The notes: generated from the letters alone by a model not told the origin. DNA of 32,000 nt from Halogeometricum borinquense DSM 11551 (GCF_000172995.2 NC_014729.1:330001-362000), one strand, 5' to 3'; counted from the stretch's first letter, positions 130 through 23,537 are shown. Made by a program: numbers and translations.

Positions 130-1344
130 CTACCGCGTCGCCGGACGTGTGTGGAGTCGATACGCGCCGTGGGTGACGCCTTCGTCGTGGTATTCGACGG
201 GTTCCTCGACTACCGCGAGAACGTCGTCACCAACTGCGACTGCCGTCGGGATACCCGCAATCGAATCCGTCTCGACGTGGCCTTCCTCGGCGTCGAACGT
301 GTGGACACCGTGCGTTTCGGCGCTTCGCCGCCGGAAGTTCTGCGCCGACGGGATGATCGCGCGCCCGTCGCTCGATCTGGCTGCGCGGGCGAAGCCACCG
401 TTGCTGTGCGTCCACAGTTGCTCTCCGTTTTCGACCGCGAATGCGGTATGTTCGTCCGGATGTCTTGCGTCCGGGTCGCGCGTCGATTCGGCGAACGTGT
501 TGCCCGTTACGAAGACGGCAACGCCGTCGGCGACGCAGACGTGATTCGGATAGGCGTACACCGTCTCCCCATCGATGTCCTGCTTCGTCGCAAGGTCGAA
601 CCCCCACTGCTCGTGGCCGTCGGAGTCGAGCAGGTAACCGCGTTTGTCACCGTGACAACAGACGGCGATATCGCCGTCCGCGAACGCCACGTCACCGACG
701 CGCCGGTCTTCGTCGGTGTCGGGATCCCACGTCGTGAGAGTGTCGCCAGTTTCGCTATCCAGTACGACGAGACCGTCTTGGTCGGGCTTCGGACACCGGT
801 TGTACGCGACGGCGACGCGGCCGTTCTCGACAGTCAGCGCGATTGGTGAGGCACCGACTCGGTAGCGCCACTGGACTGCTCCGTCGCGGTCGAAGCCGAG
901 GACGACGCTCGACCAGACTCGCTCGTCGCCGTCGCGTTCGTACCGTCTGGCGGCGGCGATTACCCGGTCGTCCGTGACCGCGACATCGACGACGTACGGG
1001 TAGAAAAACAGCGACTCCTTCGTCGCGGTCCCGATGTCGTCGGTCGTCGCGTACTCCCAGCGACGCTCACCCGTCTCCGGGTCTAGCACGCGCAGCGAGC
1101 TATCTTCGCCGCGTTCGCCGACGACGAGGCAGTCGTCGGTTGCGGCCATCGATACGACGCTTGTCGCGCCGTCCGCAGACCACAGTTCGCTGTCGAGAGC
1201 CGAGTCGAACGCGGATACCTGTCCGTCGTTCGTTCCCACGAACACCCGTCCGGCGGCGGCGGCGACGGCGGACCGCGCCCAGTTGTGTCTGCTCGCCGCG
1301 GCTTCGAGGTCGCCCAGTTCAGTTCGGTTCGTGAAGGCGGCCAT
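130..1344 (-). CDS. PQQ-like / BamB-like beta-propeller repeat protein (about 404 aa), last gene of the cobalamin operon
   Basis: The ORF track gives 130..1356. The sequence has repeated G-x-V/L-x-A-x-D-x-x-T/D-G-x-x-x-W units (e.g. GTNDGQVSAFDSALDSELW, VLDPETGERRWEY, VLDSETGDTLTTW, AVENGEQLWT), typical of PQQ-type propeller blades. The first ATG is at 1344. An alternative GTG at 1356 overlaps the upstream stop (1353-1355) by 4 nt. Confidence 0.75.
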   Translation of the reverse strand: MAAFTNRTELGDLEAAASRHNWARSAVAAAAGRVFVGTNDGQVSAFDSALDSELWSADGATSVVSMAATDDCLVVGERGEDSSLRVLDPETGERRWEYATTDDIGTATKESLFFYPYVVDVAVTDDRVIAAARRYERDGDERVWSSVVLGFDRDGAVQWRYRVGASPIALTVENGRVAVAYNRCPKPDQDGLVVLDSETGDTLTTWDPDTDEDRRVGDVAFADGDIAVCCHGDKRGYLLDSDGHEQWGFDLATKQDIDGETVYAYPNHVCVADGVAVFVTGNTFAESTRDPDARHPDEHTAFAVENGEQLWTHSNGGFARAARSSDGRAIIPSAQNFRRRSAETHGVHTFDAEEGHVETDSIAGIPTAVAVGDDVLAVVEEPVEYHDEGVTHGAYRLHTRPATR

Positions 1345-1352
1345 CGAGTCTC

Positions 1353-1730
1353 TCACTCCTCGACCGGGAACGTTTCGTGGAGCGTGTGGTGTGCTTCGCC
1401 GAGGTCTTCGAGGAACGAGTCCGTCTGTCCGCGGAGACGGCTCAGCGTCCGTTGGGCGTCCCGAACAGCGACCACGCGCCCACGGAGGTATCCGGACTGC
1501 GGGTCGTCGTCGTCGGCCTGCATCGCTTCCTCTTCAAGTTCGACGAGCGCGGCGTCGAGATGACGCTGTGCCTCGTCCAGTGTCGATGCTTCGGCCAGCG
1601 CCTGTATCGGGCCGGGTTCGTCCAGATAGCCTTCGAGTTCGGCCTCAGCGTGTTGTTTGACGCCCTCATCGACGGTTCCGGTAATGTTCATCAGTGCGAG
1701 TCGCAGTGCTTCGAGTTCAGCGCATGCCAT
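1353..1730 (-). CDS. Small acidic helical protein (125 aa) of unknown function, conserved cobalamin-operon-type protein (possibly DUF3209-like, from memory)
   Basis: This is the C-terminal part of ORF 1353..1886. I placed the start at the ATG at 1728-1730 (MACAELEALRLALMNITG...), because upstream of it the ORF is Arg-rich and overlaps the cbiX 3' end. It begins 2 nt after the cbiX stop (1733). The composition is acidic with high GC3. Confidence 0.65.
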   Translation of the reverse strand: MACAELEALRLALMNITGTVDEGVKQHAEAELEGYLDEPGPIQALAEASTLDEAQRHLDAALVELEEEAMQADDDDPQSGYLRGRVVAVRDAQRTLSRLRGQTDSFLEDLGEAHHTLHETFPVEE

Positions 1731-1732
1731 GA

Positions 1733-2947
1733 TTAGAGTGATTGGTGTACGAGGTCGGAGACGATGCGGTCCCGTTCGAGGTGGGACGAAACGATGCGTT
1801 CTGTGTCGTCGGGTGTCACGCTCCCGTACCAGATGCTGTCGGGGTAGACGGCGACGATGGGGCCGTCGCCGCACTGCCCCAGACACGAACTCCGCGAGAA
1901 GTGAACGTCGCAGTCGTCCGAATCTCGCGCGTGTTGTCTGAGTTGTTCGAGCACGGTCGCAGCGCCGCTTGCGGCACAGGTCTGGTTCGTACAGACGGCA
2001 ACGTGTTTTGCGGGCGCATCGTGGACGTGCGGGTCGTCGTCCACGTCGCTGCGGTCGGCGTGTTCGGCCTGATGGACGAGCGAGCGGAGCATCGCCCGCG
2101 CGCCGCCTTGGTCGTCTTCGTACCCCGACAGTTCGACTTTGTACTTGCAGGTGTCACACGACATCTCGACGCTTCCGGAGCGCGCTTCCTGACAGCGGTC
2201 CGCGAGTACGTCCACGAGTCGTTCGTCGGTTCCGAGCGGGCCGGACGCGCCGGCACGAACGTACGGATATTCGTCATCGAACGTCTCCGCCGTATCGATG
2301 ATCCGCTGCGTCAGGACGCCGTCACCGAGCATGTAGGGGACGACGACGACCGCGTCCGGTCGGTCCTTTGCGACGCTGTGGAGCGTGTCTTCGAGTCGGG
2401 GCGACGTGACGCCGATGAACGACGGTTCGACGCGAGTGAACTCGCGGCCTTCGTACAGCAGCCGCGAAAGCTTGTGTACGTCGCCGTTGGAGTCCGGGTC
2501 GCTCGACCCGCGAGCGCACAGCACCACGGCCACGTCGTCGTTGTCTCGGTCAACTCCGAGATCGGATTCGACAGTCCGGATGCGGTCATCGAGCAGGTCC
2601 ACAATCGACGGATGGATTCCGAGATGCGACCCGAAGTGGAACGTCACGTCATCGTACTTCGTCCGGGCGGTCTGAACCGCCATCGGCACGTCGTTTTTGA
2701 CGTGGCTGGCGGCGAACAACGACAGCGGGATCACCGTCAGCGTCCGACAGGTCGGTGCCAACGTCTCGATAGCGTCCTCGATTGACGGCTCAGCAAGCTC
2801 GATATACGCCGCATCGACGGGTACGGACAGTTCGGTTTCCAGTTTACCGGCGAGTGTCCGAACCTGTTCGTTCGACTTCTCCCGGCGCGACCCGTGTCCG
2901 ACGAGGAGTATCGCGTCGTCGTCGAGTGAGGGCTGCTCGGTACGCAT
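1733..2947 (-). CDS. cbiX: Sirohydrochlorin cobaltochelatase CbiX (double CbiX domain) fused to a His-rich linker and a C-terminal thioredoxin-like [2Fe-2S] ferredoxin domain
   Basis: AILLVGHGSRREKSNEQV and VVLCARGSSDPDSNGDV are the two CbiX-type half-domains. CDTC plus the His-rich segment HQAEHADRSDVDDDPHVHDAPAKH follow. The C-terminus carries CTNQTC...CLGQCGDGPIVAVYP (CX4C...CX3C). I placed the start at the ATG at 2945-2947 (MRTEQPSLDDD). This overlaps the upstream stop (2947-2949) by 1 nt. The longer ORF-track start (3037) would overlap the upstream gene by 91 nt. Confidence 0.88.
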   Translation of the reverse strand: MRTEQPSLDDDAILLVGHGSRREKSNEQVRTLAGKLETELSVPVDAAYIELAEPSIEDAIETLAPTCRTLTVIPLSLFAASHVKNDVPMAVQTARTKYDDVTFHFGSHLGIHPSIVDLLDDRIRTVESDLGVDRDNDDVAVVLCARGSSDPDSNGDVHKLSRLLYEGREFTRVEPSFIGVTSPRLEDTLHSVAKDRPDAVVVVPYMLGDGVLTQRIIDTAETFDDEYPYVRAGASGPLGTDERLVDVLADRCQEARSGSVEMSCDTCKYKVELSGYEDDQGGARAMLRSLVHQAEHADRSDVDDDPHVHDAPAKHVAVCTNQTCAASGAATVLEQLRQHARDSDDCDVHFSRSSCLGQCGDGPIVAVYPDSIWYGSVTPDDTERIVSSHLERDRIVSDLVHQSL

Positions 2948-3615
2948 CAGTTTTCGGCCTGTTCGAGGCTTCGTGTCAGCTTCTGTCGTCGTGTCGGTGC
3001 GAACAGGTTCGTCTCGTCGCTTCCGTCGTAGACCCACGTGCCGAACGGGGCCGCCGCGTCGTCGTCGAGACCGAACCAGTAGCCGCCGGACGAGGTTTCA
3101 CTAATTTCGCCCGTCGGCGCGTCAACCGGGCAGGCGTCGAGCAGGCTATCAACCGTCTCCAGCAGTTTCCGGTCATCGTGGACAAACGAGATGCCGACCG
3201 TCCCGCTGGACGACTTGAAACAGACGGTTCCGCAACTTTCGAGGAGTCCGCGGAGGAGTTGCCGCTGAAATTCTTCGAACACGTCGAATCGGTAGCCTCC
3301 GGCGTCGTCACCGACTGGAAGCCCGAACGCCGCAGTCGCGTTCGAGACAACGTCACCCTCGACCGTCACGAGATACTCGTCTTTTGTCCGGGTGACTGCG
3401 GTGTTGTGTGCGTAGGGCCGCTCGGTCTCCCGCTGGTCGATGTCGCCGCCGCCAGCGATAGCCGCGAGGCGGTCCGCACACGTCTCGTCGTTCGTACTGA
3501 TCGTGAACTCGCCCGGCTGAATGTCGCCGCTTCCTGCGACGTGTCCCCAGAGATAGGCTGTCTCGGGTGCGCCCTTCAGGAGATCCGACGCGGGTTCGAT
3601 GTCAGTGTCGCTCAT
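2947..3615 (-). CDS. Uncharacterised cobalamin-operon protein, 222 aa, with two degenerate LAGLIDADG-like motifs
   Basis: The ORF is acidic with good GC3. A 4-nt ATGA overlap joins it to the upstream ferredoxin gene and a 1-nt overlap joins it to cbiX. The motifs are AYLWGHVAGSGDIQPGEFTIST and QLLRGLLESCGTVCFKSSSGTVGISFVHDDRKLLETVDSLL. No methylase, chelatase or reductase signature was recognised. Confidence 0.8.
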   Translation of the reverse strand: MSDTDIEPASDLLKGAPETAYLWGHVAGSGDIQPGEFTISTNDETCADRLAAIAGGGDIDQRETERPYAHNTAVTRTKDEYLVTVEGDVVSNATAAFGLPVGDDAGGYRFDVFEEFQRQLLRGLLESCGTVCFKSSSGTVGISFVHDDRKLLETVDSLLDACPVDAPTGEISETSSGGYWFGLDDDAAAPFGTWVYDGSDETNLFAPTRRQKLTRSLEQAEN

Positions 3616-3863
3616 GTGTCTACCTCTCGAACCGTAATTGCGTCAGGTGGACACGCCTGCGCCGCCAGCTGCGCGTCATCGATATTTCCTTCGACCGTCG
3701 CGACGACGCTGTTTCGCTCGTCGTCGCGTGCGACTTCAATGACGCCCTCGGCGTCCGCATCAATCGTTGCGAGTCCCGTTTCGTCTTCGACGAATCGGCC
3801 GTCGCGGGCGAGACACGCGAAGATGCCGTCGCAGGCCGTCCGGTCGATTTCGATTTCGAACAT
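3612..3863 (-). CDS. Small ferredoxin (83 aa), single-cluster 4Fe-4S/3Fe-4S type
   Basis: MFEIEIDRTACDGIFACLARDG...AAQACPPDAITV has the C-x(2,5)-C...CP pattern of small bacterial-type ferredoxins. It starts 1 nt after the cbiH stop and is therefore in the operon. Confidence 0.8.
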   Translation of the reverse strand: MFEIEIDRTACDGIFACLARDGRFVEDETGLATIDADAEGVIEVARDDERNSVVATVEGNIDDAQLAAQACPPDAITVREVDT

Positions 3864-3864
3864 C

Positions 3865-4827
3865 TCAGTACTCGTATTTTTGCTCGTAGCCGCGGGGGGT
3901 CACCATCCGGCCGTCCCAGACGTAGGTCTCCTCGTTGCCGACGAGTAGCGTCGTCGTCATGTCTATGAGGTCCGTTTCGCCGAGTTCGGGAAGGTCTTGG
4001 AGTTCGACGATTTCGACTTCCTCGTCCTCGCGGCCCGCGCCGTGGACGATACCGACCGGCGTCTCGGGGTCGCGGTGTTCGAGCAGAATCTCGCAACACT
4101 TCTCGTAGTTCGACCGCCGCTTGCGACTCCACGGGTTGTAGATGACGATGGTGAAGCCCTCTTTTGCGGCCGAGTGCAGGCGAGATTCGATGGTCGGCAT
4201 CGACGTCAGGTGATCCGAGAGGCTGATGGTGACCGTGTCGTTCACCAAGGGCGCACCCAGTCGTGCGGCACAGGACTGTGCGGCGGGGACGCCAGCAACC
4301 ACGTCGAAATCGACCATGCTTGCGGTCGCACCTTTCGATTCGAGGATTTCGAGTGCAAGCCCAGCCAGCGCGTAGACGTTCGGGTCGCCGCTCCCGACGA
4401 TTGCCACGTCGTTGCCGGCGAGCGTTCGGTCGATTGCCTCCTCGGTCCGGGAGACTTCGCCACACATCGGCGTCGAGTAGATGTCCTCGGCACCCTCGAC
4501 GATGTCGTCGGGGAGGAGTTCGATGTACGTCGTGTAACCAACGATGTGTTCTGCGTCTCGGAGCGTCTCTTTCGCCAGCGTCGTCATCTCACTCGCTCGG
4601 CCGGGACCGAGGCCGACCGCGACGAGTTGGCCCGGTTCGGCGTCGAAGTCCTCGACGGTCGCTTCGACCTTCTCGTCAGTCTGTTCTTTCTTCGAACTCC
4701 CGCATTTGGAACTTGACGAGGTGTCCTTCGATTTCGAGGACCCACCGCACTTCGAGGTTGTTTCTTCGCTCGATTCGCTCGTCTTTCCGCCGCACTTCGA
4801 TTCGGATTGTGTGTTACTTTCGCTCAT
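3865..4827 (-). CDS. cbiH: Cobalt-factor III / precorrin-3B C17-methyltransferase CbiH with a roughly 60-aa Ser/Lys/Cys-rich N-terminal extension
   Basis: The tetrapyrrole methylase fold is indicated by LVAVGLGPGRASEMT, IVGYTTYIELL, VGSGDPNVYA, VVAGVPAAQSCAARLGAPL, TISLSDHL, IVIYNP and MVTPRGY. The N-terminus MSESNTQSESKCGGKTSESSEETTSKCGGSSKSKDTSSSSKCGSSKK precedes the methylase core. Confidence 0.9.
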   Translation of the reverse strand: MSESNTQSESKCGGKTSESSEETTSKCGGSSKSKDTSSSSKCGSSKKEQTDEKVEATVEDFDAEPGQLVAVGLGPGRASEMTTLAKETLRDAEHIVGYTTYIELLPDDIVEGAEDIYSTPMCGEVSRTEEAIDRTLAGNDVAIVGSGDPNVYALAGLALEILESKGATASMVDFDVVAGVPAAQSCAARLGAPLVNDTVTISLSDHLTSMPTIESRLHSAAKEGFTIVIYNPWSRKRRSNYEKCCEILLEHRDPETPVGIVHGAGREDEEVEIVELQDLPELGETDLIDMTTTLLVGNEETYVWDGRMVTPRGYEQKYEY

Positions 4828-4829
4828 GA

Positions 4830-5681
4830 TTAGAAGTCGTCAACGTCGCGCCCGCCGCGGGGCGTGACGAGGTACGTTTCGTAGTCGTTACTCCACGGTT
4901 CGGTCTCGTGCGTGCCGATGAGAATCGACGTTCCCATTCCGCCGACGTCGTCGTCGTGCGACTTCGCGTCGCCGAGAGTCGTAATCGAGAACGTCTCGTC
5001 GTCCAGATTTCGACCCGCCTCGCCGCGACCGGCGTCGTTGAAGATGCCGACCGGAACATCGTCGGCGCGTTCTTCGCGGACGATGTCGATAGCGCGGGTG
5101 TAGTTCCGCCAGCAGTTGTACAGGACGATGACGAAGTTGCTGATGGCGGCCGCGCGCAGTTTCTCCTCGATTTCGTCCCACCCGCGCCACTTGTCGGACA
5201 GCGAAATCGTACAGAAGTCGTTCGACAGCGGCGCGCCCATCATCGCCGCGCCGCCGAGTGCCGCGGTCACGCCGGGGACGATTTCGATTGGAACGTCCGT
5301 CGCGTCGTCGGATTCCGCCATCGTGAACACGAGGTCGGACTTGCCGTAGACGTTCGGGTCACCGCCGGAGACGTGCGCCACGTCCTCGCCGTCTCGAACT
5401 CGCTCGAAGGCTTCGCGGGTCAGTTCGACCTGTTGGCCCATCGAGGAACGGACGACTTCCGGGCCGTCGTCGCTGTCTTCTGGCGGAAGCGTCCCATCGT
5501 CGCGGAGGAATTCCTGATAGAGATTCGAGGCGACGACGCAATCGGAAGTCTGGATGACTTCCTTGGCACGCTGGGTCATGTGATCCGGGAGACCGGGACC
5601 GATGCCGACGACGTAGAGTGTTCCGTAGTCGTCGGGGACTTCCGCGTGGCTGTCTGTCGTCGTCTCCGCGCCTTCGCTCAT
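4830..5681 (-). CDS. cbiH: Second CbiH-like tetrapyrrole methyltransferase (paralog, 283 aa)
   Basis: Motifs are LYVVGIGPGLPDHMT, VSGGDPNVYG, IVPGVTAALGGAAMMGAPL, TISLSDKW, IVLYNCW and LVTPRGG. It shares the ISLSD / TPRG CbiH-type signatures but is divergent. It overlaps cbiG by 4 nt and lies 2 nt upstream of the other cbiH. Confidence 0.85.
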   Translation of the reverse strand: MSEGAETTTDSHAEVPDDYGTLYVVGIGPGLPDHMTQRAKEVIQTSDCVVASNLYQEFLRDDGTLPPEDSDDGPEVVRSSMGQQVELTREAFERVRDGEDVAHVSGGDPNVYGKSDLVFTMAESDDATDVPIEIVPGVTAALGGAAMMGAPLSNDFCTISLSDKWRGWDEIEEKLRAAAISNFVIVLYNCWRNYTRAIDIVREERADDVPVGIFNDAGRGEAGRNLDDETFSITTLGDAKSHDDDVGGMGTSILIGTHETEPWSNDYETYLVTPRGGRDVDDF

Positions 5682-6640
5682 CGTCCCACCGCCACGGTCA
5701 CCGCGTCGTCGTAGCGCTGCTTTTCGACAATGAGTTCGTGGTCGCGGCCGCCGGCAATCGCGCTCGCTTCAGCAATTCCCGGCCAGCCGATGAGTTCCTT
5801 CGACCGCGACGGCGTCGGTCCCTCGAACTCGGTGAGCGTCTCCTTCTCGAAGTAGACGACGCCCGCATCGATTTCTTGGGCGGCGTCGAGCATGCCGGGT
5901 TCGTCGGCCTTTCGCGTGCCGGTGGCGACGAAGTCAACGTCGTCCCAGTCGCAGTCGGCGTCGTCGAGTGCGCGTTCCCACGCGGTCAGGAACTGCTCTT
6001 TCTTCGCGCCGGAGACGCTGCCGGTGCCGAGGACGACGCCGTCGTCGCCGTTTCGCTTGAGAACGGTCACGTCGTCATCGACGAGGACGGCTTTCGGTCC
6101 GTCGAGTCGGGCCACTGGGCCGAGTTCGTCGTTGAGGACGGCGAGGTTCGTCGCAACGGTCGAATCGCCGTTGACGACGTGTGTGTCGAGCGCCTTCGCC
6201 TTGCTCTCGACACCCTGCTTTCCGGCCGCCTCGGAGGCGGTCGTCATCGCCGGCACCGCGCCGAGTTTCGAGAGGTCGTAGGCGACCTGATTCGCGCCGT
6301 GATGTCCGCCGGTGAGCGGAATCGCCCACGTGAGTTCTTCGTCTACGACGACGACCGCGGGGTCTTCCCACTTGTCGTCGAGGAGGCCGGCGGTCTTTCG
6401 CATGGCAATCCCGCTGGCCATCAGGCCGACGAAACAGTCGTATTCGCCCCAATGCTCGGCGAACACGTCGCCGTGGTAGGTGAGGATGTCTATCCTGTCG
6501 TAGTCGTCCGCGAGGTCCCGCTTGATCTCTTCGGCCGTCTCCAGTTTCCGTTCGAAACTGACGATAGCAATCTCGCGGGCGACTTCTCCGTCGCTGTCCG
6601 GTGTACTACAGTGTCCGCTTCCGGAATCAGAATCACTCAT
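5678..6640 (-). CDS. cbiG: Cobalt-precorrin-5A hydrolase CbiG
   Basis: Motifs are FVGLMASGIAMRKTAGLLDDKWEDPAVVVVDE and IPLTGGHHGAN, with a C-terminal ...IGWPGIAEASAI domain. It has 4-nt overlaps with cbiF and the cbiH paralog. Confidence 0.9.
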   Translation of the reverse strand: MSDSDSGSGHCSTPDSDGEVAREIAIVSFERKLETAEEIKRDLADDYDRIDILTYHGDVFAEHWGEYDCFVGLMASGIAMRKTAGLLDDKWEDPAVVVVDEELTWAIPLTGGHHGANQVAYDLSKLGAVPAMTTASEAAGKQGVESKAKALDTHVVNGDSTVATNLAVLNDELGPVARLDGPKAVLVDDDVTVLKRNGDDGVVLGTGSVSGAKKEQFLTAWERALDDADCDWDDVDFVATGTRKADEPGMLDAAQEIDAGVVYFEKETLTEFEGPTPSRSKELIGWPGIAEASAIAGGRDHELIVEKQRYDDAVTVAVGR

Positions 6641-7482
6641 TGTGTATCACGCTCCTGTGTTTCAGAATCGTCGCCGTCGTTCGGCGCGTCACCACCGCGA
6701 GCCCAGTCGCCGTAGAGGAACGACCGCTCGTAGTCTGAGCCGGTGACCGCCTCGCCAATCATCACGAGTGCCGAAGCCCGATAGCCGGCTTCGGACACCT
6801 TCTGGCCAATCGTCTCGATGGTACCTTCGATAACGTCCTCGTCCGGCCACGAGGCGTGGTAGACGACCGCGACCGGCGTCTCGGGGTCGTGTCCCTCGTC
6901 CAGCAGTCGGTCCATCGTTTCTTCAACGGCGTGCGTCCCGAGGTAGATACACACCGTCGTGTCGCCGAAGCCGACGAAGTCGCTGATGTGGTCTTCTTCG
7001 GCAGAGAGCGTCCGACCCTGTGGCCGGGTAAAGACGACGTGATTTGCGACTTCGTTCAGCGTCAACTGCGTTCTGAGCGTCGCGCTCGCGGCGAATGCGG
7101 AGGTGACGCCCGGAACGAGGTACGTCGGCACGCCCTCGGATTCCAGCGCGTCCATCTGTTCGAGCGCCGCACCGTATACCGCCGGGTCGCCGCTGTGAAG
7201 ACGGACGACCGTCTCGCCGGATTCGTAAGCGTCGGCCATCAGCGGAATCAGCTCTTCGAGGTCCTTGCCGACGCTGTTGACCTGCTCGGCGTGGTCACAG
7301 TACTCGTCGAGGAGTTCGCTGTTGACGAGCGACCCGGCGTGAACGACGAGGTCTGCTTCTTCGACGAGTCGCCGCCCCGCGACCGTAAGCAGTTCAGGGT
7401 CGCCCGGCCCGGCACCGACGAAGGGAATCCCCTCCTTGTCGGTGAAGCCGGTGTCTGCGTCGCCGTCGACGGGGTCGCTCAT
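6637..7482 (-). CDS. cbiF: Cobalt-precorrin-4 C11-methyltransferase CbiF
   Basis: Motifs are FVGAGPGDPELLTVAGRRLVEEADLVVHAGSLV, VVRLHSGDPAVYGA and LVPGVTSAFAASA. Confidence 0.9.
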   Translation of the reverse strand: MSDPVDGDADTGFTDKEGIPFVGAGPGDPELLTVAGRRLVEEADLVVHAGSLVNSELLDEYCDHAEQVNSVGKDLEELIPLMADAYESGETVVRLHSGDPAVYGAALEQMDALESEGVPTYLVPGVTSAFAASATLRTQLTLNEVANHVVFTRPQGRTLSAEEDHISDFVGFGDTTVCIYLGTHAVEETMDRLLDEGHDPETPVAVVYHASWPDEDVIEGTIETIGQKVSEAGYRASALVMIGEAVTGSDYERSFLYGDWARGGDAPNDGDDSETQERDTQ

Positions 7483-8207
7483 TTCGACACCTCCGGCTCG
7501 ACCGCGTCGGTATCCGCCGACTCAGCGTCGAACTCCGCGGTCGCAACGTCACGTTCGAGACCTTCGCGCTCTGCGTACGCCAGCGTGTAGTAATCACGTT
7601 CTGCGATTTCCTGCGGATTCGACGTTACGAGCGTCTCACCCTGCTCCATGAAGAGACGGCGTCCGAATTTTACATCGTATCCGGCTTCTGTCAGCCCCTC
7701 GTAGGTCGCGGGGGCGTCGGTGACCTTGAACAGAATCATCCGATCAGGCCCGGTCGGGGCCGCGCCGTTTGCGGCCTCGCGGAGCGAGAGGCCGGTTCCG
7801 GATTCGATTTCGACGCCGAGTGCGGTGGCGAACGCCGTCATCGCACTCACGCCGGGCACGACTTCGAGTTCGACCGCTGGATGGAACGCATCGAGCGTCC
7901 GGCGGAGATGGCCGAACGTCGAATACACGTTCGGGTCGCCGAGCGTCACGAATGCAACGTCACCCGATTCGGCTCTCTCTGCGACCTCTGCGGCGGCTTC
8001 CTTCCACGCGCGTCGGAGTTCGTCCGGGTCGCGCGTCATCGGGAAGTCGAGGTCGCCGATTCGTTCTTCGGGGACGTGGTTCAGCGCGACAGTCCGCGAG
8101 AGTCGGCCCGGAGAGTAGACCACATCGACCGATTCGAGAATCCGCTTTCCTTTGACGGTCACGAGGTCGGCATCGCCGGGACCCAATCCGACGCCGTAGA
8201 CGGTCAT
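7479..8207 (-). CDS. cbiL: Cobalt-factor II (precorrin-2) C20-methyltransferase CbiL
   Basis: Motifs are MTVYGVGLGPGDADLVTVKGKRILESVDVVYSPG, VAFVTLGDPNVYSTF and VVPGVSAMTAFA. Confidence 0.88.
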   Translation of the reverse strand: MTVYGVGLGPGDADLVTVKGKRILESVDVVYSPGRLSRTVALNHVPEERIGDLDFPMTRDPDELRRAWKEAAAEVAERAESGDVAFVTLGDPNVYSTFGHLRRTLDAFHPAVELEVVPGVSAMTAFATALGVEIESGTGLSLREAANGAAPTGPDRMILFKVTDAPATYEGLTEAGYDVKFGRRLFMEQGETLVTSNPQEIAERDYYTLAYAEREGLERDVATAEFDAESADTDAVEPEVSK

Positions 8208-8764
8208 CAGTCCAGCCCTCCGGCGTCGCGCCGTCCGACGATGATGTACACCGGATTGTTGGATTTGAAACTCGTCGCTCCGGCGAGTTCGTAGCCGTGG
8301 CTCACCTGCATCTGGACGACTTCGTCGAGCAGGTCACGTTCGCGGAAGGCCTCGATTGCCGCACCGGTCGGTTCGACCCGCGAGACGTTCATGACGACGC
8401 GGTCGATTTCGGATTTGACGGCGTGGTCCAGCACCGCCTCGAAGTTCCGGCTCCCGCCGATGAACATCGCATCCGCGTCGTCCGGGAGACCTGCCGGTGC
8501 TTCCGCCTCGTGGAGCGCTACGTCGGCATCGTACTCGTTCGCCGCGAGGTTCTTCCGCGTCACCTCCAGTCGCTTTGCCTTTCGTTCGACAGCGGTCACC
8601 CGTTTGACTCGTTGCGCCGCTTCGATGCTAACCGACCCGGTACACGACCCGACATCGACGAAGTGGTCAGTCGGACGTAAGTCGAGTTTGTCGAGCGTTA
8701 CCGCTCGCACCTCCGACTTCGTCGGTCCTGCCTTGGCGTCGTGCGGGAGCGTTACGCGTGACAT
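8207..8764 (-). CDS. cbiT: Cobalt-precorrin-6B C15-methyltransferase (decarboxylating) CbiT, first gene of the operon
   Basis: PTKSEVRAVTLDKLDLRPTDHFVDVGSCTGSVSIEAA is a class I SAM methyltransferase motif in the CbiT context. The gene is 185 aa and overlaps the cbiL start by 1 nt. Confidence 0.88.
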   Translation of the reverse strand: MSRVTLPHDAKAGPTKSEVRAVTLDKLDLRPTDHFVDVGSCTGSVSIEAAQRVKRVTAVERKAKRLEVTRKNLAANEYDADVALHEAEAPAGLPDDADAMFIGGSRNFEAVLDHAVKSEIDRVVMNVSRVEPTGAAIEAFRERDLLDEVVQMQVSHGYELAGATSFKSNNPVYIIVGRRDAGGLD

Positions 8765-11268: not shown

Positions 11269-11367
11269 CACTTCGTAAGTATCTCGTATATCGATGTAAA
11301 CGGCCGTTTTGGTTCCTATCACTCTCCATGAGGATACTCATTTATACGCGCAGTGATGTGTGTCACT

Positions 11368-12012
11368 ATGCATCAGGCCGTACTCCGAATTAACAGCAAC
11401 ACCCCGTACGAACGAGCGACTGCTGGGTCTGATGCGCGAATCGAGTTGTGGTGTAACAACCACTGTGACCTGCTCTCCGTCGATGGTCGCGTCGGTGAGG
11501 AGGTGTTCGATCATATCGAGGAGACGGTCGGGGTGTACAACGAACTCCGCGGCGAACACGGCCGCGTAATCGTTACGGATGCCTGTTTGAAGGCTCACAG
11601 CAAGCACAACATCGAACCGTATCTGGAATCCAACAACTGCCTGCTTGTGCCGCCAATCCGCTACGAAGGCGGTGCCAAGCGCGTTCGTGTGCTTGCTTCC
11701 CGTGCGGAGGATCTCACGAACTTCTACGCCGAGATTACCGAAACGTACGAGGTTCACGTAGAGTCGAAGAGAGAAATCACGGCGGTGTTTGCAGACCAGC
11801 CTGTCGTGTCGTTGCAGGCGCTCTTACCGACACTATCACCCCGTCAACGCGAGATTTTCACCCTCGCACACGAGCGTGGTTATTACGAAATTCCCCGTGA
11901 AACCACGACGACCGAACTGGCCGAAGAAGTCGGAATCCAGCGCCGCACGCTCGAACATCATCTTCGCCGCACTGAGGAGAAACTCGCGGACGCGTTCGTC
12001 GAATTGCTCTGA
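11368..12012 (+). CDS. HTH_10 (bat-type) helix-turn-helix transcriptional regulator
   Basis: The C-terminal LSPRQREIFTLAHERGYYEIPRETTTTELAEEVGIQRRTLEHHLRRTEEKL is the haloarchaeal HTH_10 signature. TTTATA at 11341-11346 lies 27 nt before ATG 11368, which suggests a leaderless transcript. Alternative in-frame starts are at 11353 and 11356. Confidence 0.8.
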   Translation: MHQAVLRINSNTPYERATAGSDARIELWCNNHCDLLSVDGRVGEEVFDHIEETVGVYNELRGEHGRVIVTDACLKAHSKHNIEPYLESNNCLLVPPIRYEGGAKRVRVLASRAEDLTNFYAEITETYEVHVESKREITAVFADQPVVSLQALLPTLSPRQREIFTLAHERGYYEIPRETTTTELAEEVGIQRRTLEHHLRRTEEKLADAFVELL

Positions 12013-15297: not shown

Positions 15298-15526
15298 ACT
15301 CGTGATTGGTTCTCTGGTGAGTTAACAGATACCATGTCGCATTCTTTCTCGGGTATTCTTCTGGGCACTGCGCTTCAATTTCAGTGTCAGTGAAAAGACG
15401 TGGTTGCGGAGCGTTCGTGGCGGATCTCGTATGGATGTGGCGAGACAATGCCCGCCAAATTTCCGAGTGTATCCGGGGTCGAGAGCCATCAACACCCACA
15501 TTAGTCCCGACCGAAATCGGAACGAT

Positions 15527-16213
15527 ATGGGTCTCGTCGCCGAGTTCGAAATCGATTGTGATGCACTCCCGCTCGTCGAGGTGGCGGCGGCCGTGCCAGA
15601 GGCGATGATAGAGGTTGCAATCCAGTTCAACCACGGCAATCGGCCACCGTTTATCGCCCATATAACGCACGGGGACCCTGATGCAATCGAACGCGCCTTC
15701 GAGTCGGGAGCATTCGCGGCAGAGTACACTCTGGTCGGACGGGCGGGCGAGACACACCGATATCAGATCCTCCCAGCGGTCGGGTTAGAAGCAAAACTCG
15801 GTGAACAAATCGATGATCTCGACGGTCTCCGCGCGCTCGCTACCACCGATGCCATCATCGAGCGGATCCGTGTCACCTCCTCCGGTTGGATTCAAACAGG
15901 GTGGTTCGCTAATACGGACGAGTTTGATATGTTCCGCCGATTCTGGCAGCAAAACGCCGGCTTCTCGCTCCGCCGATTAACCCACGACGGCGAACCCGAA
16001 GAGCCGGGTGATGGGCTTACCGACCCCCAGCGCGAGGCGCTCCGAACGGCCTACGAAATGGGATACTTCGAGATTCCACGGACCGCGTCTCTGGACGATG
16101 TCGCGGGCGAACTCGGTATTACTGCGTCTTCGCTTTCCGAACGACTTCGTCGCGCACAGACCCACCTCATCGAAACGACAGTTGCCTCGACGTGGCCCCC
16201 GCTCCCGGTGTGA
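15527..16213 (+). CDS. HTH_10 (bat-type) transcriptional regulator
   Basis: I placed the start at ATG 15527 (MGLVAEFEIDCDALPLVE...), a typical N-terminus for this family. The C-terminal LTDPQREALRTAYEMGYFEIPRTASLDDVAGELGITASSLSERLRRAQTHL is the HTH_10 motif. The ORF-track start at 15404 adds an Arg-rich, atypical leader. Confidence 0.82.
   Translation: MGLVAEFEIDCDALPLVEVAAAVPEAMIEVAIQFNHGNRPPFIAHITHGDPDAIERAFESGAFAAEYTLVGRAGETHRYQILPAVGLEAKLGEQIDDLDGLRALATTDAIIERIRVTSSGWIQTGWFANTDEFDMFRRFWQQNAGFSLRRLTHDGEPEEPGDGLTDPQREALRTAYEMGYFEIPRTASLDDVAGELGITASSLSERLRRAQTHLIETTVASTWPPLPV

Positions 16214-21356: not shown

Positions 21357-23537
<2,181 letters not shown>

What the first reader, a model, noticed from the sequence alone, without database searches (positions are those of the whole stretch)
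2947..3615. Unknown 222-aa protein with two degenerate LAGLIDADG-like motifs hard-wired into the B12 operon
- Operon context: the gene is translationally coupled on both sides. It has an ATGA overlap with the ferredoxin gene at 3612-3615 and a TGATG overlap with cbiX at 2945-2949. It is therefore almost certainly co-expressed stoichiometrically with corrin-ring enzymes.
- No known signature: I see no methylase, chelatase, mutase or reductase motif.
- Internal motifs: two related segments are present, AYLWGHVAGSGDIQPGEFTIST and QLLRGLLESCGTVCFKSSSGTVGISFVHDDRKLLETVDSLL. Both look like the helix-then-beta-hairpin start of LAGLIDADG (DOD) domains (compare the generic xFLxGxxDGDGsv pattern), but with altered acidic positions.
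- Why it matters: a domesticated, probably nuclease-dead DOD fold inside a cofactor pathway would be unusual.
- Pathway gap: this window lacks cbiD, cbiJ, cbiE, cbiC and cbiA. Pathway steps may therefore be encoded elsewhere or by non-orthologous genes such as this one.
- Prior annotation (from memory, unverified): curated haloarchaeal annotations call such ORFs 'conserved cobalamin operon protein' with no function.
Basis: partly seen in the sequence, partly recalled or inferred. Interest (0 to 1): 0.72.

Follow-up and report, generated by a model that had tools for sequence, protein, structure and literature searches.

The report
Nuclease-dead LAGLIDADG protein in B12 operon
A gene in the middle of a salt-loving archaeon's vitamin B12 operon encodes a protein with the fold of a DNA-cutting "homing endonuclease" that has lost its cutting residues; it is a strong candidate for an enzyme step that has long been missing from the B12 pathway of these organisms.

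Summary
ORF 2947-3615(-) encodes 222 aa and is 100% identical to Halogeometricum borinquense C499_19252, the ortholog of Haloferax volcanii HVO_B0055. It overlaps the ferredoxin gene (ATGA) and cbiX (TGATG).

The fold guess is also right.
- 29 of 46 family members give weak Pfam LAGLIDADG_3 hits.
- The AlphaFold2 model (pLDDT 94) shows two alpha-beta-beta-alpha-beta-beta-alpha units.
- All 50 listed Foldseek PDB hits are LAGLIDADG proteins (I-Tsp061I, I-DmoI, PI-SceI, bI3 maturase, WhiA).
- Pfam already names the family LAGLIDADG_4 (PF26411).

The nuclease acids are gone. Motif 1 position 8 varies, and motif 2 carries a near-invariant Cys. Conserved instead are H70, E126, C128-x3-C132, K134, Y196 and R209/R210.

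The ferredoxin-ORF-cbiX order holds in 78-79 of 80 haloarchaeal genomes. Distant homologs sit beside cob clusters in marine Myxococcota; one such cluster contains cbiD but shows no cbiJ.

The gene was already published as one of four unassigned cob-cluster genes, candidates for the missing CbiD/CbiJ steps.

My best mechanism is a ferredoxin-fed cobalt-precorrin-6A reductase replacing CbiJ. This is inferred, at about 0.33. Rivals are a cobalt chaperone, an intermediate carrier and a regulator.

The parts
2947..3615 (-). Gene for the 222-aa LAGLIDADG_4 (PF26411) protein. It is the ortholog of Hfx. volcanii HVO_B0055 and is identical to Halogeometricum borinquense C499_19252.
   Evidence: ORF. 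100% identity to P0001. AlphaFold2 model with pLDDT 94.3. Foldseek hits all LAGLIDADG proteins. Pfam family name seen.
3493..3558 (-). Motif 1 (aa 20-41, AYLWGHVAGSGDIQPGEFTIST): the end of LAGLIDADG helix 1 plus the first beta-hairpin of domain 1. The canonical catalytic position is S29.
   Evidence: Translation. Secondary structure H17-29, E30-33, E36-41. Position 8 varies across the family (D65 A40 S20 G8 T6 K6 N5 R3).
3139..3261 (-). Motif 2 (aa 119-159, QLLRGLLESCGTVCFKSSSGTVGISFVHDDRKLLETVDSLL): LAGLIDADG helix 2, the hairpin and the next helix of domain 2.
   Evidence: Pfam LAGLIDADG_3 hit at aa 115-160 against profile positions 1-44. H111-128, E129-134, E139-146, H149-160.
3220..3234 (-). 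C128-G-T-V-C132. The Cys pair sits where the nuclease catalytic acid would be (C128 = motif position 8), preceded by invariant E126.
   Evidence: The sequence tgcggaaccgtctgt is read. Cys at motif 2 position 8 in 165 of 169 sequences, and E/D at position 6 in 169 of 169. C128 and C132 are universal in all three clades.
3406..3408 (-). Codon of H70, which is invariant in haloarchaeal, Manganitrophaceae and Myxococcota members. It lies at the turn of the long beta3-beta4 hairpin of domain 1.
   Evidence: Strands E58-68 and E71-86.
3612..3863 (-). Gene for an 83-aa single-cluster ferredoxin (Fer4_15) with three conserved Cys (CxxXxxC...CP). Its stop overlaps the ORF start (ATGA at 3612-3615).
   Evidence: Pfam. 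Overlap read. Overlap conserved in 78 of 80 genomes. Cys pattern.
1733..2947 (-). cbiX cobaltochelatase gene: two CbiX domains plus a C-terminal thioredoxin-like [2Fe-2S] domain. Its start overlaps the ORF stop (TGATG at 2945-2949).
   Evidence: Pfam. Sequence. Adjacent to the ORF in 79 of 80 genomes.
130..8764 (-). The co-directional cob operon that contains the ORF: cbiT-cbiL-cbiF-cbiG-cbiH1-cbiH2-fdx-ORF-cbiX-DUF3209-PQQ repeat.
   Evidence: ORFs. Pfam. The same order is annotated on Hfx. volcanii pHV3.

Best explanation
Shown:
- The ORF is a real, conserved gene for a monomeric, two-domain (pseudo-dimeric) LAGLIDADG-fold protein of Pfam family LAGLIDADG_4.
- It has lost the pair of acidic residues that homing endonucleases use to hold Mg2+.
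- In their place it carries a different, universally conserved polar set: H70, E/D126, C128-x3-C132, K/R134, Y196, R209/R210.
- It is a fixed member of the cobalt-early corrin-ring operon of Halobacteria. Its start codon overlaps the stop codon of a small ferredoxin gene in almost every genome.

Inferred:
- It is a pathway component that acts on a cobalt-corrinoid intermediate, not on DNA.
- Most likely it is the non-orthologous replacement of the missing cobalt-precorrin-6A reductase CbiJ (EC 1.3.1.106).
- In this model the polyanionic corrinoid lies on the beta-sheet saddle that holds DNA in the nucleases.
- The adjacent ferredoxin delivers two single electrons.
- The conserved His/Cys/acid/Tyr residues at the former nuclease centre supply the protons for reducing the C18=C19 bond. 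This would be functionally analogous to cofactor-less ferredoxin-dependent bilin reductases.

Confidence that it is a nuclease-dead LAGLIDADG-fold cob-pathway protein is about 0.9. Confidence in the specific CbiJ-replacement mechanism is about 0.33; that is the figure given below.
For: Fold:
- AlphaFold2 pLDDT 94.3 with a 2 x alpha-beta-beta-alpha-beta-beta-alpha topology.
- The 50 listed Foldseek PDB hits are all LAGLIDADG proteins.
- Pfam LAGLIDADG_3 hits in 29 of 46 members. The family is named PF26411 LAGLIDADG_4.

Loss of the nuclease site:
- S29 and C128 occupy the catalytic positions here. In the family, motif 1 is variable and motif 2 is Cys in 165 of 169.

A new conserved site:
- The same polar residues are invariant in Halobacteria, Manganitrophaceae and Myxococcota.
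- By the alternation of hydrophobic and polar residues in strands E129-134 and E139-146, residues T130, C132, K134, G141 and S143 face the saddle surface. This is inference.

Pathway link:
- fdx-ORF-cbiX adjacency in 78-79 of 80 genomes.
- fdx/ORF codon overlap in 78 of 80.
- The same arrangement on pHV3.
- HVO_B0055 protein is reported to fall together with the other cob enzymes at high temperature (PMC8305020 supplement).

The gap:
- cbiD and cbiJ are absent from haloarchaea (PMC8305020; PMC3403918; PMC6719526).

Narrowing to CbiJ:
- Marine Myxococcota homologs lie next to cob genes in two different arrangements (L083/L091 and L085).
- The L085 operon encodes CbiA-type amidase, CbiD, CbiC, CbiET, CbiL, CbiF, CbiH, CbiG and CbiX, with no CbiJ in view.
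- It has no homolog of the other three haloarchaeal unknowns, PQQ repeat protein, DUF3209 or ferredoxin.
- LAGLIDADG_4 is therefore the only unassigned gene shared by the two kinds of cluster, and it tracks the absence of cbiJ, not of cbiD.
Against: - No biochemical or genetic data exist for any member.
- No redox cofactor-binding motif is recognisable, and no LAGLIDADG protein is known to be an enzyme acting on anything but nucleic acid.
- The Myxococcota argument is incomplete. Only 10 kb on each side could be read, the L085 operon continues past cbiX off the locus, and the rest of those MAGs could not be searched, so a cbiJ elsewhere is not excluded.
- Manganitrophaceae (Nitrospirota) members have no cob genes within 8-10 kb.
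- The ferredoxin could instead serve CbiH2, which lies one base upstream of it. By my own recollection, not checked here, Bacillus megaterium CbiH60 carries its own Fe-S cluster.
- PMC8305020 prefers the PQQ-repeat protein plus the ferredoxin for the reductase step.
- The ORF is less conserved (median 59% identity) than the established enzymes (71-79%).
- I had no model coordinates, so clustering of the conserved residues in space is inferred from LAGLIDADG topology and was not measured.
Confidence: 0.33

Rival explanations
1. Metal (cobalt) chaperone or accessory subunit of the CbiX cobaltochelatase. In this view the former two-metal nuclease centre was rebuilt with soft ligands (C128, C132, H70, E126) to hold Co2+ and pass it to CbiX, whose gene it overlaps.
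For: - The Cys-x3-Cys plus His plus acid set is conserved at the site where LAGLIDADG nucleases bind divalent metals.
- The gene lies immediately upstream of cbiX in 79 of 80 genomes, with overlapping codons in 55 of 80.
- The cbiMQO cobalt transporter is next to the operon.
- Myxococcota forms carry an extra N-terminal domain with a conserved SHLHLRH motif and a conserved Cys.
Against: - To my knowledge CbiX and CbiK act without a chaperone in characterised systems.
- The tighter and more conserved coupling is to the ferredoxin (78 of 80), not to cbiX (55 of 80).
- In Myxococcota the gene is not next to cbiX; in L085 it lies at the opposite end of the operon.
- This role does not fill either known pathway gap.
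Confidence: 0.15
2. Non-catalytic carrier or scaffold for labile cobalt-corrinoid intermediates. The saddle would bind the polyanionic intermediate, with H70 or a Cys as axial cobalt ligand, and hand it between enzymes.
For: - The saddle-face residues and basic residues (K/R134, R209/R210, K/R212) are conserved.
- Bacterial members have a strongly basic hairpin (CFRKKKRR, CYKKSTR) that suits a polycarboxylate ligand.
- The gene sits in mid-operon.
- It evolves faster than the enzymes.
Against: - This leaves both pathway gaps open.
- An invariant Cys pair is not needed for simple binding.
- No direct evidence exists.
Confidence: 0.15
3. Nucleic-acid-binding regulator, in the manner of WhiA or a maturase. 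The nuclease-dead LAGLIDADG saddle would still bind DNA (or RNA) and control cob gene expression in response to cobalt or corrinoid. This could fill the place that B12 riboswitches have in bacteria.
For: - Every characterised LAGLIDADG protein binds nucleic acid. The structural neighbours include WhiA in an RNA-polymerase promoter complex and the bI3 maturase.
- In Myxococcota the gene is divergently transcribed from cob operons, and it carries an extra N-terminal domain that could be a sensor.
- Bacterial members are neutral to basic, with pI 6.9-9.8.
Against: - A mid-operon position with codon overlaps on both sides in 11-gene enzyme operons is atypical for a regulator.
- The residues conserved from archaea to bacteria are Cys/His/acid/Tyr, not a lineage-specific DNA-reading surface.
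- The L085 operon already has a cobalamin riboswitch.
- There is no HTH domain, unlike WhiA.
- A separate HTH_10 regulator gene sits beside cbiMQO in the window.
- The haloarchaeal protein has net charge of about -24 and pI 4.2.
Confidence: 0.17
4. Replacement for CbiD, the cobalt-precorrin-5B C1-methyltransferase (EC 2.1.1.195), rather than for CbiJ.
For: - CbiD is also missing in haloarchaea, and the gene is one of four unassigned cluster genes.
Against: - There is no SAM-binding fold or motif.
- Myxococcota clusters that carry the gene also carry a normal CbiD.
- The extra TP_methylase paralog CbiH1, present in haloarchaea (two cbiH genes) but single in L085, is the better CbiD substitute.
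Confidence: 0.04
5. Decaying selfish homing-endonuclease gene that merely happens to sit in the operon.
For: - It has the LAGLIDADG fold.
Against: - It holds a fixed position in 80 of 80 genomes across several haloarchaeal families.
- Identity is 55-85% with invariant non-nuclease residues.
- There is no intron or intein host gene.
- Expression as a protein is reported.
- Bacterial homologs keep the same conserved residues.
Confidence: 0.01

Closest known systems
Monomeric two-domain LAGLIDADG homing endonucleases (I-Tsp061I 2dch, I-DmoI, PI-SceI endonuclease domain, I-SceI, I-AniI)
   Same: - Same fold and size: two alpha-beta-beta-alpha-beta-beta-alpha units in one chain of about 200 aa, with the two LAGLIDADG helices at the domain interface.
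- Foldseek E down to 2e-8 and TM 0.55-0.65.
- The G-x-x-x-G-x-G helix-end motif is still recognisable.
   Different: - It lacks the acidic residue at the end of each LAGLIDADG helix: S29 (variable in the family) and C128.
- It is not encoded in an intron or intein and is not mobile. It is a fixed operon gene.
- It has a conserved Cys-x3-Cys/His/Tyr/Arg set absent from the nucleases.
WhiA (DUF199) sporulation/cell-division transcription factor (3hyi, 8dy7/8dy9)
   Same: - It is a domesticated bacterial protein with two degenerate LAGLIDADG domains that lack the catalytic residues.
- It is a structural neighbour (ranks 4, 7, 24, 44).
   Different: - By my own knowledge, WhiA has a C-terminal helix-turn-helix domain that provides its DNA binding. 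This protein ends with the second LAGLIDADG domain and has no HTH hit.
- The genomic context differs (cob operon), and the conserved residues differ.
bI3 / I-AniI-type LAGLIDADG maturases (2ab5)
   Same: - The LAGLIDADG scaffold is re-used for a non-nuclease job.
- It is a structural neighbour (ranks 3 and 6).
   Different: - Maturases are intron-encoded and bind their own group I intron RNA. There is no intron here.
CbiJ/CobK precorrin-6A reductase (Pfam PF02571)
   Same: - It catalyses the step proposed here, reduction of (cobalt-)precorrin-6A to 6B.
- It is absent from haloarchaeal genomes and from the visible Myxococcota cluster that carries this gene.
   Different: - There is no sequence or fold relationship.
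- By my own knowledge, CbiJ uses NAD(P)H. Here a ferredoxin is the presumed electron donor, so any relationship would be functional analogy only.
Ferredoxin-dependent bilin reductases (PcyA, HY2, PebA/B); functional analogy only
   Same: - By my own knowledge, these are cofactor-less, metal-free enzymes.
- They reduce a tetrapyrrole C=C bond with two single electrons from ferredoxin and with protons from conserved His/Asp/Glu residues, and the substrate lies on a beta-sheet.
- That is the working model proposed here.
   Different: - The fold is unrelated.
- The substrate is a linear tetrapyrrole.
- Nothing here has been tested experimentally.
HVO_B0055 of Haloferax volcanii (PMC8305020)
   Same: - It is the direct ortholog: 80% identity, with the same neighbours and the same 4-nt overlaps.
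- It is listed as 'function unassigned, no domain', and as a candidate for the CbiD/CbiJ gaps.
   Different: - There is no difference in kind. That paper reported no fold or functional insight for this protein.

Membership tests
Pfam PF26411 LAGLIDADG_4 | Match to the family profile | tested here: met
   The identical protein P0001 and all 120 listed homologs carry precomputed PF26411.1. The name LAGLIDADG_4 is shown. The local Pfam copy lacks this model.
LAGLIDADG (DOD) fold superfamily | alpha-beta-beta-alpha-beta-beta-alpha core, duplicated, with the two motif helices packed at the pseudo-dyad | tested here: met
   Topology from the AlphaFold2 model, pLDDT 94.3. The 50 listed Foldseek PDB hits are all LAGLIDADG proteins with probability 1.00. 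Helix packing itself was not inspected, because no coordinates were available.
LAGLIDADG (DOD) fold superfamily | Detectable sequence similarity to LAGLIDADG profiles | tested here: met
   The query alone is sub-threshold (E 0.0029, 18.3 bits against 22.5). Across the family, 29 of 46 members hit LAGLIDADG_3 (best 1.8e-6) and 9 of 46 hit Hom_end.
Active LAGLIDADG homing endonuclease | Conserved acidic residue (Asp/Glu) at the C-terminal end of each LAGLIDADG helix (motif position 8) for Mg2+ binding | tested here: not met
   These positions are S29 and C128 in this protein. In the family, motif 1 is D65/A40/S20/G8/T6/K6/N5/R3 and motif 2 is C165/S3/T1.
Active LAGLIDADG homing endonuclease | Encoded in an intron, an intein or a free-standing mobile insertion with patchy distribution | tested here: not met
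   It is a free-standing gene at the same operon position in 78-80 of 80 genomes.
Active LAGLIDADG homing endonuclease | Site-specific DNA cleavage | not testable with these tools
   This needs an in vitro cleavage assay.
WhiA family | C-terminal helix-turn-helix DNA-binding domain after the two degenerate LAGLIDADG domains | tested here: not met
   The protein is 222 aa and ends with domain 2 (H185-196, H207-221). No HTH_WhiA or other HTH hit appears at E up to 10.
CbiJ/CobK reductase (PF02571) | Sequence match to the CbiJ profile | tested here: not met
   No Pfam or NCBIfam hit, and the fold is LAGLIDADG. Only functional replacement is proposed, not membership.
CbiJ/CobK reductase (functional equivalence) | Converts cobalt-precorrin-6A to cobalt-precorrin-6B | not testable with these tools
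   This needs an enzymatic assay or mutant metabolite profiling.
CbiD methyltransferase (PF01888) | CbiD fold or SAM binding | tested here: not met
   No hit. In Myxococcota the gene co-occurs with a genuine CbiD.

The most novel reading that the evidence does not exclude
The LAGLIDADG homing-endonuclease fold has been converted into a metabolic enzyme: a ferredoxin-dependent cobalt-precorrin-6A reductase. Its former two-metal DNA-cleavage centre now carries a Cys-x3-Cys/His/acid proton-relay or redox site, and its DNA saddle binds a corrinoid. This would close the CbiJ gap in haloarchaeal B12 synthesis, and in that of some bacteria. It would also be the first non-nucleic-acid catalytic function for this fold.
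Probability: 0.3. Interest if true: 0.85.

Novelty: new variant of a known kind. Interest (0 to 1): 0.62.

Why it matters
Haloarchaea make cobalamin de novo, yet no gene has been found for two consecutive steps: CbiD (C1 methylation) and CbiJ (C18=C19 reduction). Curated reconstructions have listed this as an open gap from 2012 to 2021 (PMC3403918, PMC8305020, PMC6719526).

This work makes four points about one of the four unassigned cluster genes.
- It is a nuclease-dead LAGLIDADG protein with a new conserved Cys/His/acid site.
- Its start codon overlaps the stop codon of a ferredoxin gene in nearly all haloarchaeal genomes examined.
- It is the only one of the four also found beside bacterial cob clusters.
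- One of those bacterial clusters has cbiD but shows no cbiJ.

Together these turn a vague candidate list into a specific hypothesis that a deletion mutant or an enzyme assay can test.

If the hypothesis is right, it adds a new enzyme to the B12 pathway. That is relevant to predicting B12 producers from metagenomes, where a missing cbiJ is currently scored as an incomplete pathway. It would also be the first example of the LAGLIDADG scaffold recruited for small-molecule chemistry.

If the regulator rival is right instead, it would be a candidate for the unknown protein-based B12/cobalt regulation in archaea, where cobalamin riboswitches are, to my knowledge, not known.

Tried and rejected
- PDB sequence searches with the single protein and with the family profile found nothing meaningful.
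- NCBIfam found nothing.
- Internal-repeat test: hhalign of the N-half against the C-half gave only E 0.021 over 28 columns. The duplication is supported by fold, not by sequence.
- Exhaustive representative search: only 21 cluster representatives at E<=1e-3, so this is a narrow family.
- The 140-aa N-terminal domain of the Myxococcota long forms could not be identified.
  - Pfam, NCBIfam and the PDB profile search were all negative.
  - It is not related to DUF3209 or to the ferredoxin.
  - The homology search found only fragments and one stand-alone copy in an uninformative context.
  - The AlphaFold2 model of the long form was poor (pLDDT 50). Its Foldseek search gave no significant hits, only weak LAGLIDADG matches.
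- No cobalamin riboswitch lies in front of the Myxococcota LAGLIDADG_4 genes. The one in L085 faces the cbiA operon.
- The metagenome scan for more bacterial contexts returned only 5 loci. Four are Manganitrophaceae-like and one is a distant partial match; none has cob neighbours.
- The literature has no paper on HVO_B0055 beyond PMC8305020, and none linking LAGLIDADG to cobalamin biosynthesis enzymes.
- Rejected: the selfish-element remnant and the CbiD replacement (see rivals).
- Could not do:
  - read the rest of the Myxococcota contigs or the Manganitrophus genome to check for cbiJ;
  - inspect model coordinates for spatial clustering of the conserved residues.


Full report
**1. What is in the sequence**

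The minus-strand ORF 2947..3615 encodes 222 aa from an ATG, with no upstream alternative start.

On the coding strand, its ATG overlaps the TGA of the upstream 83-aa ORF 3612..3863 as ATGA. Its TGA overlaps the ATG that begins the CbiX reading frame (MRTEQPSLDD...) as TGATG.

Pfam identifies the following genes on that strand:
- 8207-8764: a CbiT-like class I methyltransferase
- 7479-8207, 6637-7482, 4830-5681 and 3865-4827: four tetrapyrrole methylases (cbiL, cbiF, cbiH1, cbiH2)
- 5678-6640: CbiG
- 3612-3863: a single-cluster ferredoxin (Fer4_15)
- 2947-3615: the ORF
- 1733-2947: CbiX with a C-terminal thioredoxin-like [2Fe-2S] domain
- 1353-1736: DUF3209
- 130-1356: a PQQ-like beta-propeller

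Divergently, cbiM, cbiQ and cbiO follow from 8882. The rest of the window has no cob genes.

**2. Identity and prior knowledge**

The protein is 100% identical to Halogeometricum borinquense DSM 11551 C499_19252. It is 80% identical to the pHV3 gene HVO_RS00265 (= HVO_B0055), which has the same neighbours and 4-nt overlaps on both sides.

Pfeiffer and Dyall-Smith (PMC8305020) list four unassigned genes of the haloarchaeal cobalamin cluster:
- HVO_B0052 (PQQ repeat)
- HVO_B0053 (DUF3209)
- HVO_B0055 ('devoid of any domain assignment')
- HVO_B0056 (ferredoxin)

They report that these four are strictly coupled to cbiTLFGH1H2 in most genomes. They treat them as candidates for the two remaining consecutive gaps, CbiD (EC 2.1.1.195) and CbiJ (EC 1.3.1.106). 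They also cite proteomics in which HVO_B0055 falls with the other cob enzymes at high temperature. The same two gaps are noted in PMC3403918 and PMC6719526.

I found no other paper on this protein.

**3. Fold**

Sequence evidence:
- The query alone gives a sub-threshold LAGLIDADG_3 hit: aa 115-160 against profile positions 1-44, E 0.0029.
- Across 46 aligned family members, 29 hit LAGLIDADG_3 (best 1.8e-6) and 9 hit Hom_end.
- All homologs carry the newer Pfam family PF26411, which the context tool names LAGLIDADG_4. Pfam curators have therefore already recognised the relationship.

Structural evidence:
- An AlphaFold2 model built from the 46-sequence alignment is confident, with pLDDT 94.3 and pTM 0.91.
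- It has the secondary-structure order H17-29, E30-33, E36-41, H44-53, E58-68, E71-86, H88-97 / H111-128, E129-134, E139-146, H149-160, E179-183, H185-196, H207-221. This is two LAGLIDADG core units in one chain.
- Foldseek against the PDB returns only LAGLIDADG proteins in the 50 listed hits: I-Tsp061I at E 2e-8 with TM 0.60/0.65, then I-DmoI, the PI-SceI and TliVMA intein endonuclease domains, bI3 maturase, WhiA, I-SceI and I-AniI.
- Direct N-half/C-half profile similarity is weak (E 0.021).

**4. Not a nuclease**

Aligning the motifs to L-A-G-L-I-D-A-D-G puts S29 and C128 at position 8, where the nucleases have the metal-binding Asp/Glu.

Across 169 family sequences:
- Motif 1 position 8 is D 65, A 40, S 20, G 8, T 6, K 6, N 5, R 3.
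- Motif 2 position 8 is Cys in 165.
- Motif 2 position 6 is always E or D.

The gene is not in an intron or intein. It sits at one fixed position in 80 of 80 genomes examined.

**5. What is conserved instead**

The family has three clades:
- Halobacteria: 173 GTDB species with a hit.
- Manganitrophaceae and related Nitrospirota: about 197 aa.
- Marine Myxococcota MAGs: about 342 aa, with an extra N-terminal domain.

Residues identical in all three are Y21, G24, D43, H70, P100, R122, G123, C128, G129, C132, G141, F144, G177, W180, F181, Y196, R209 and R210. Positions 126 (E/D), 134 (K/R) and 212 (K/R) are conservatively held.

From the alternation of hydrophobic and polar residues in strands 129-134 and 139-146, residues T130, C132, K134, G141 and S143 should face the saddle surface. 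C128 ends the second LAGLIDADG helix at the pseudo-dyad. This is inference from topology; I had no coordinates.

A polar Cys/His/acid/Tyr/Arg set preserved between archaea and bacteria looks like a ligand, metal or catalytic site. It does not look like a DNA-sequence-reading surface.

**6. Context statistics**

Among 80 haloarchaeal loci:
- cbiX follows immediately in 79 and the ferredoxin gene precedes in 78; the other two are partial ferredoxin matches in the same place.
- The ferredoxin stop and the ORF start overlap in 78 of 80, and 70 of those are ATGA.
- The ORF stop and the cbiX start overlap in 55 of 80; the remaining gaps are at most 97 nt.

The ferredoxin keeps three Cys (CxxXxxC...CP). 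By my own knowledge this is the pattern of [3Fe-4S]-type, or non-Cys-ligated [4Fe-4S], one-electron carriers.

Outside Haloferax the ORF is 59% identical (median) to this one. That is similar to DUF3209 (59%), above the ferredoxin (53%) and the PQQ protein (48%), and below the established enzymes (71-79%).

**7. Bacterial contexts**

Myxococcota:
- In three independent contigs the gene lies beside cob genes, in two different arrangements.
- In L085 it is divergent from an operon that starts with a cobalamin riboswitch (87.7 bits). That operon encodes a CbiA-type amidase, CbiD, CbiC, CbiE-CbiT, CbiL, CbiF, CbiH, CbiG and CbiX.
- In L083 and L091 it is divergent from a methylase-GHMP kinase-CobQ-CbiB operon, with CbiD-CbiC-CbiET-CbiL nearby.
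- No CbiJ domain is annotated in what could be read.
- No homolog of the haloarchaeal PQQ, DUF3209 or ferredoxin proteins is present.
- The genes on the other side differ between contigs.

LAGLIDADG_4 is therefore the only one of the four haloarchaeal unknowns that also accompanies bacterial cob clusters. It co-occurs with CbiD, so it tracks the cbiJ gap rather than the cbiD gap. Haloarchaea have two cbiH paralogs where L085 has one, which fits the published suggestion that CbiH1 replaces CbiD.

Caveats:
- The L085 operon runs off the locus past cbiX, and the rest of these MAGs could not be searched.
- Manganitrophaceae-type members show no cob neighbours. One has a convergent 2Fe-2S ferredoxin gene.

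**8. Mechanism**

Shown: the fold, the loss of the nuclease acids, the new conserved residues, operon membership, and the overlap with the ferredoxin gene.

Inferred:
- The protein acts on a cobalt-corrinoid intermediate.
- Most likely it is a ferredoxin-fed cobalt-precorrin-6A reductase standing in for CbiJ.
- The polyanionic substrate would sit on the saddle.
- The His/Cys/acid/Tyr set would donate protons, or act as a redox-active dithiol.

By my own knowledge, the closest working analogy is the cofactor-less ferredoxin-dependent bilin reductases.

I give the specific mechanism about 0.33, and 'nuclease-dead LAGLIDADG protein dedicated to corrin synthesis' about 0.9.

Rivals:
- Regulator (0.17). 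It is helped by the fold's universal nucleic-acid ligands, by the divergent orientation in bacteria, and by a possible N-terminal sensor domain. It is hurt by the mid-operon coupling, the riboswitch in L085, the absence of an HTH, and a separate HTH_10 regulator gene at 11353-12012.
- Cobalt chaperone for CbiX (0.15).
- Intermediate carrier (0.15).
- CbiD replacement (0.04).
- Selfish remnant (0.01).

**9. Novelty and verdict**

Three things are not new: the gene's existence, its synteny, its candidate status (2021 paper), and the fold label (Pfam LAGLIDADG_4).

What this analysis adds:
- The residue-level picture: nuclease acids replaced by an invariant Cys pair plus His.
- The near-universal codon overlap with the ferredoxin gene.
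- The bacterial relatives next to cob clusters that contain cbiD but show no cbiJ.

Together these focus the open pathway question on one gene and one step. I rate this a new functional variant of a known fold family. Interest is moderate to high because it makes an open gap in B12 biosynthesis directly testable.

Noticed in passing
window 3865-4827 (-), first ~60 codons (about 4650-4827): The CbiH2-type methylase has an N-terminal low-complexity Ser/Lys-rich extension with three K-C-G-[GS] repeats (SKCGGKTSE, SKCGGSSKS, SKCGSSKKE) before the TP_methylase domain starts at aa 68. It might be a Cys-based metal or cluster site. The ferredoxin gene lies one base downstream of this gene.
   Followed up: no
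window 1733-2947 (-), aa 313-387: The CbiX cobaltochelatase carries a C-terminal thioredoxin-like [2Fe-2S] ferredoxin domain (Pfam 2Fe-2S_thioredx, E 7e-10). The Myxococcota CbiX in L085 aligns to aa 12-338 of it at 38% identity.
   Followed up: partly
window 11353-12012 (+): An HTH_10 transcription regulator with an HVO_A0563_N domain is encoded directly after the cbiM/Q/O cobalt-uptake genes. It is a plausible protein regulator of cobalt uptake and cob genes in this archaeon. A second HTH_10 protein is at 15404-16213, ahead of an ABC-2 transporter pair.
   Followed up: no
P0147/P0149/P0137 aa 1-140; loci L083 10001-10420 and L085 10001-10420: Myxococcota LAGLIDADG_4 proteins carry a conserved 140-aa N-terminal domain of unknown fold, with a His-rich motif (R-S-H-L-H-L-R-H) and a conserved Cys16. 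It has no Pfam, NCBIfam or PDB match. One stand-alone homolog (P0186, 151 aa) sits in an unrelated context (L090).
   Followed up: partly
L081, L086, L088, L092-L095 (Manganitrophaceae/Nitrospirota-like contigs): Short (about 197 aa) bacterial family members keep all the universal residues but have no cob genes within 8-10 kb. Their neighbours include a GerE regulator, a chromate transporter, DUF4382, MacB-type efflux and, in L088, a convergent 2Fe-2S ferredoxin. None of the mechanisms proposed here explains this.
   Followed up: partly
L085 9598-9761 (-): A full-length cobalamin riboswitch (RF00174, 87.7 bits) lies ahead of the Myxococcota cbiA-cbiD-...-cbiX operon. It faces away from the LAGLIDADG_4 gene, which starts 240 bp further on. 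No riboswitch was found in the equivalent intergenic regions of L083 and L091.
   Followed up: yes
window 3612-3863 (-): The operon ferredoxin has only three conserved cysteines (C11-x5-C17 ... C70-P) in 78 haloarchaeal orthologs. This suggests a [3Fe-4S] cluster or a non-Cys-ligated [4Fe-4S] cluster rather than a standard 4-Cys cluster.
   Followed up: partly
window 21393-23537 (+): A 714-aa catalase-peroxidase (KatG-type, Pfam peroxidase, two domains) is encoded about 12 kb from the cob cluster. It is unrelated to the finding.
   Followed up: no
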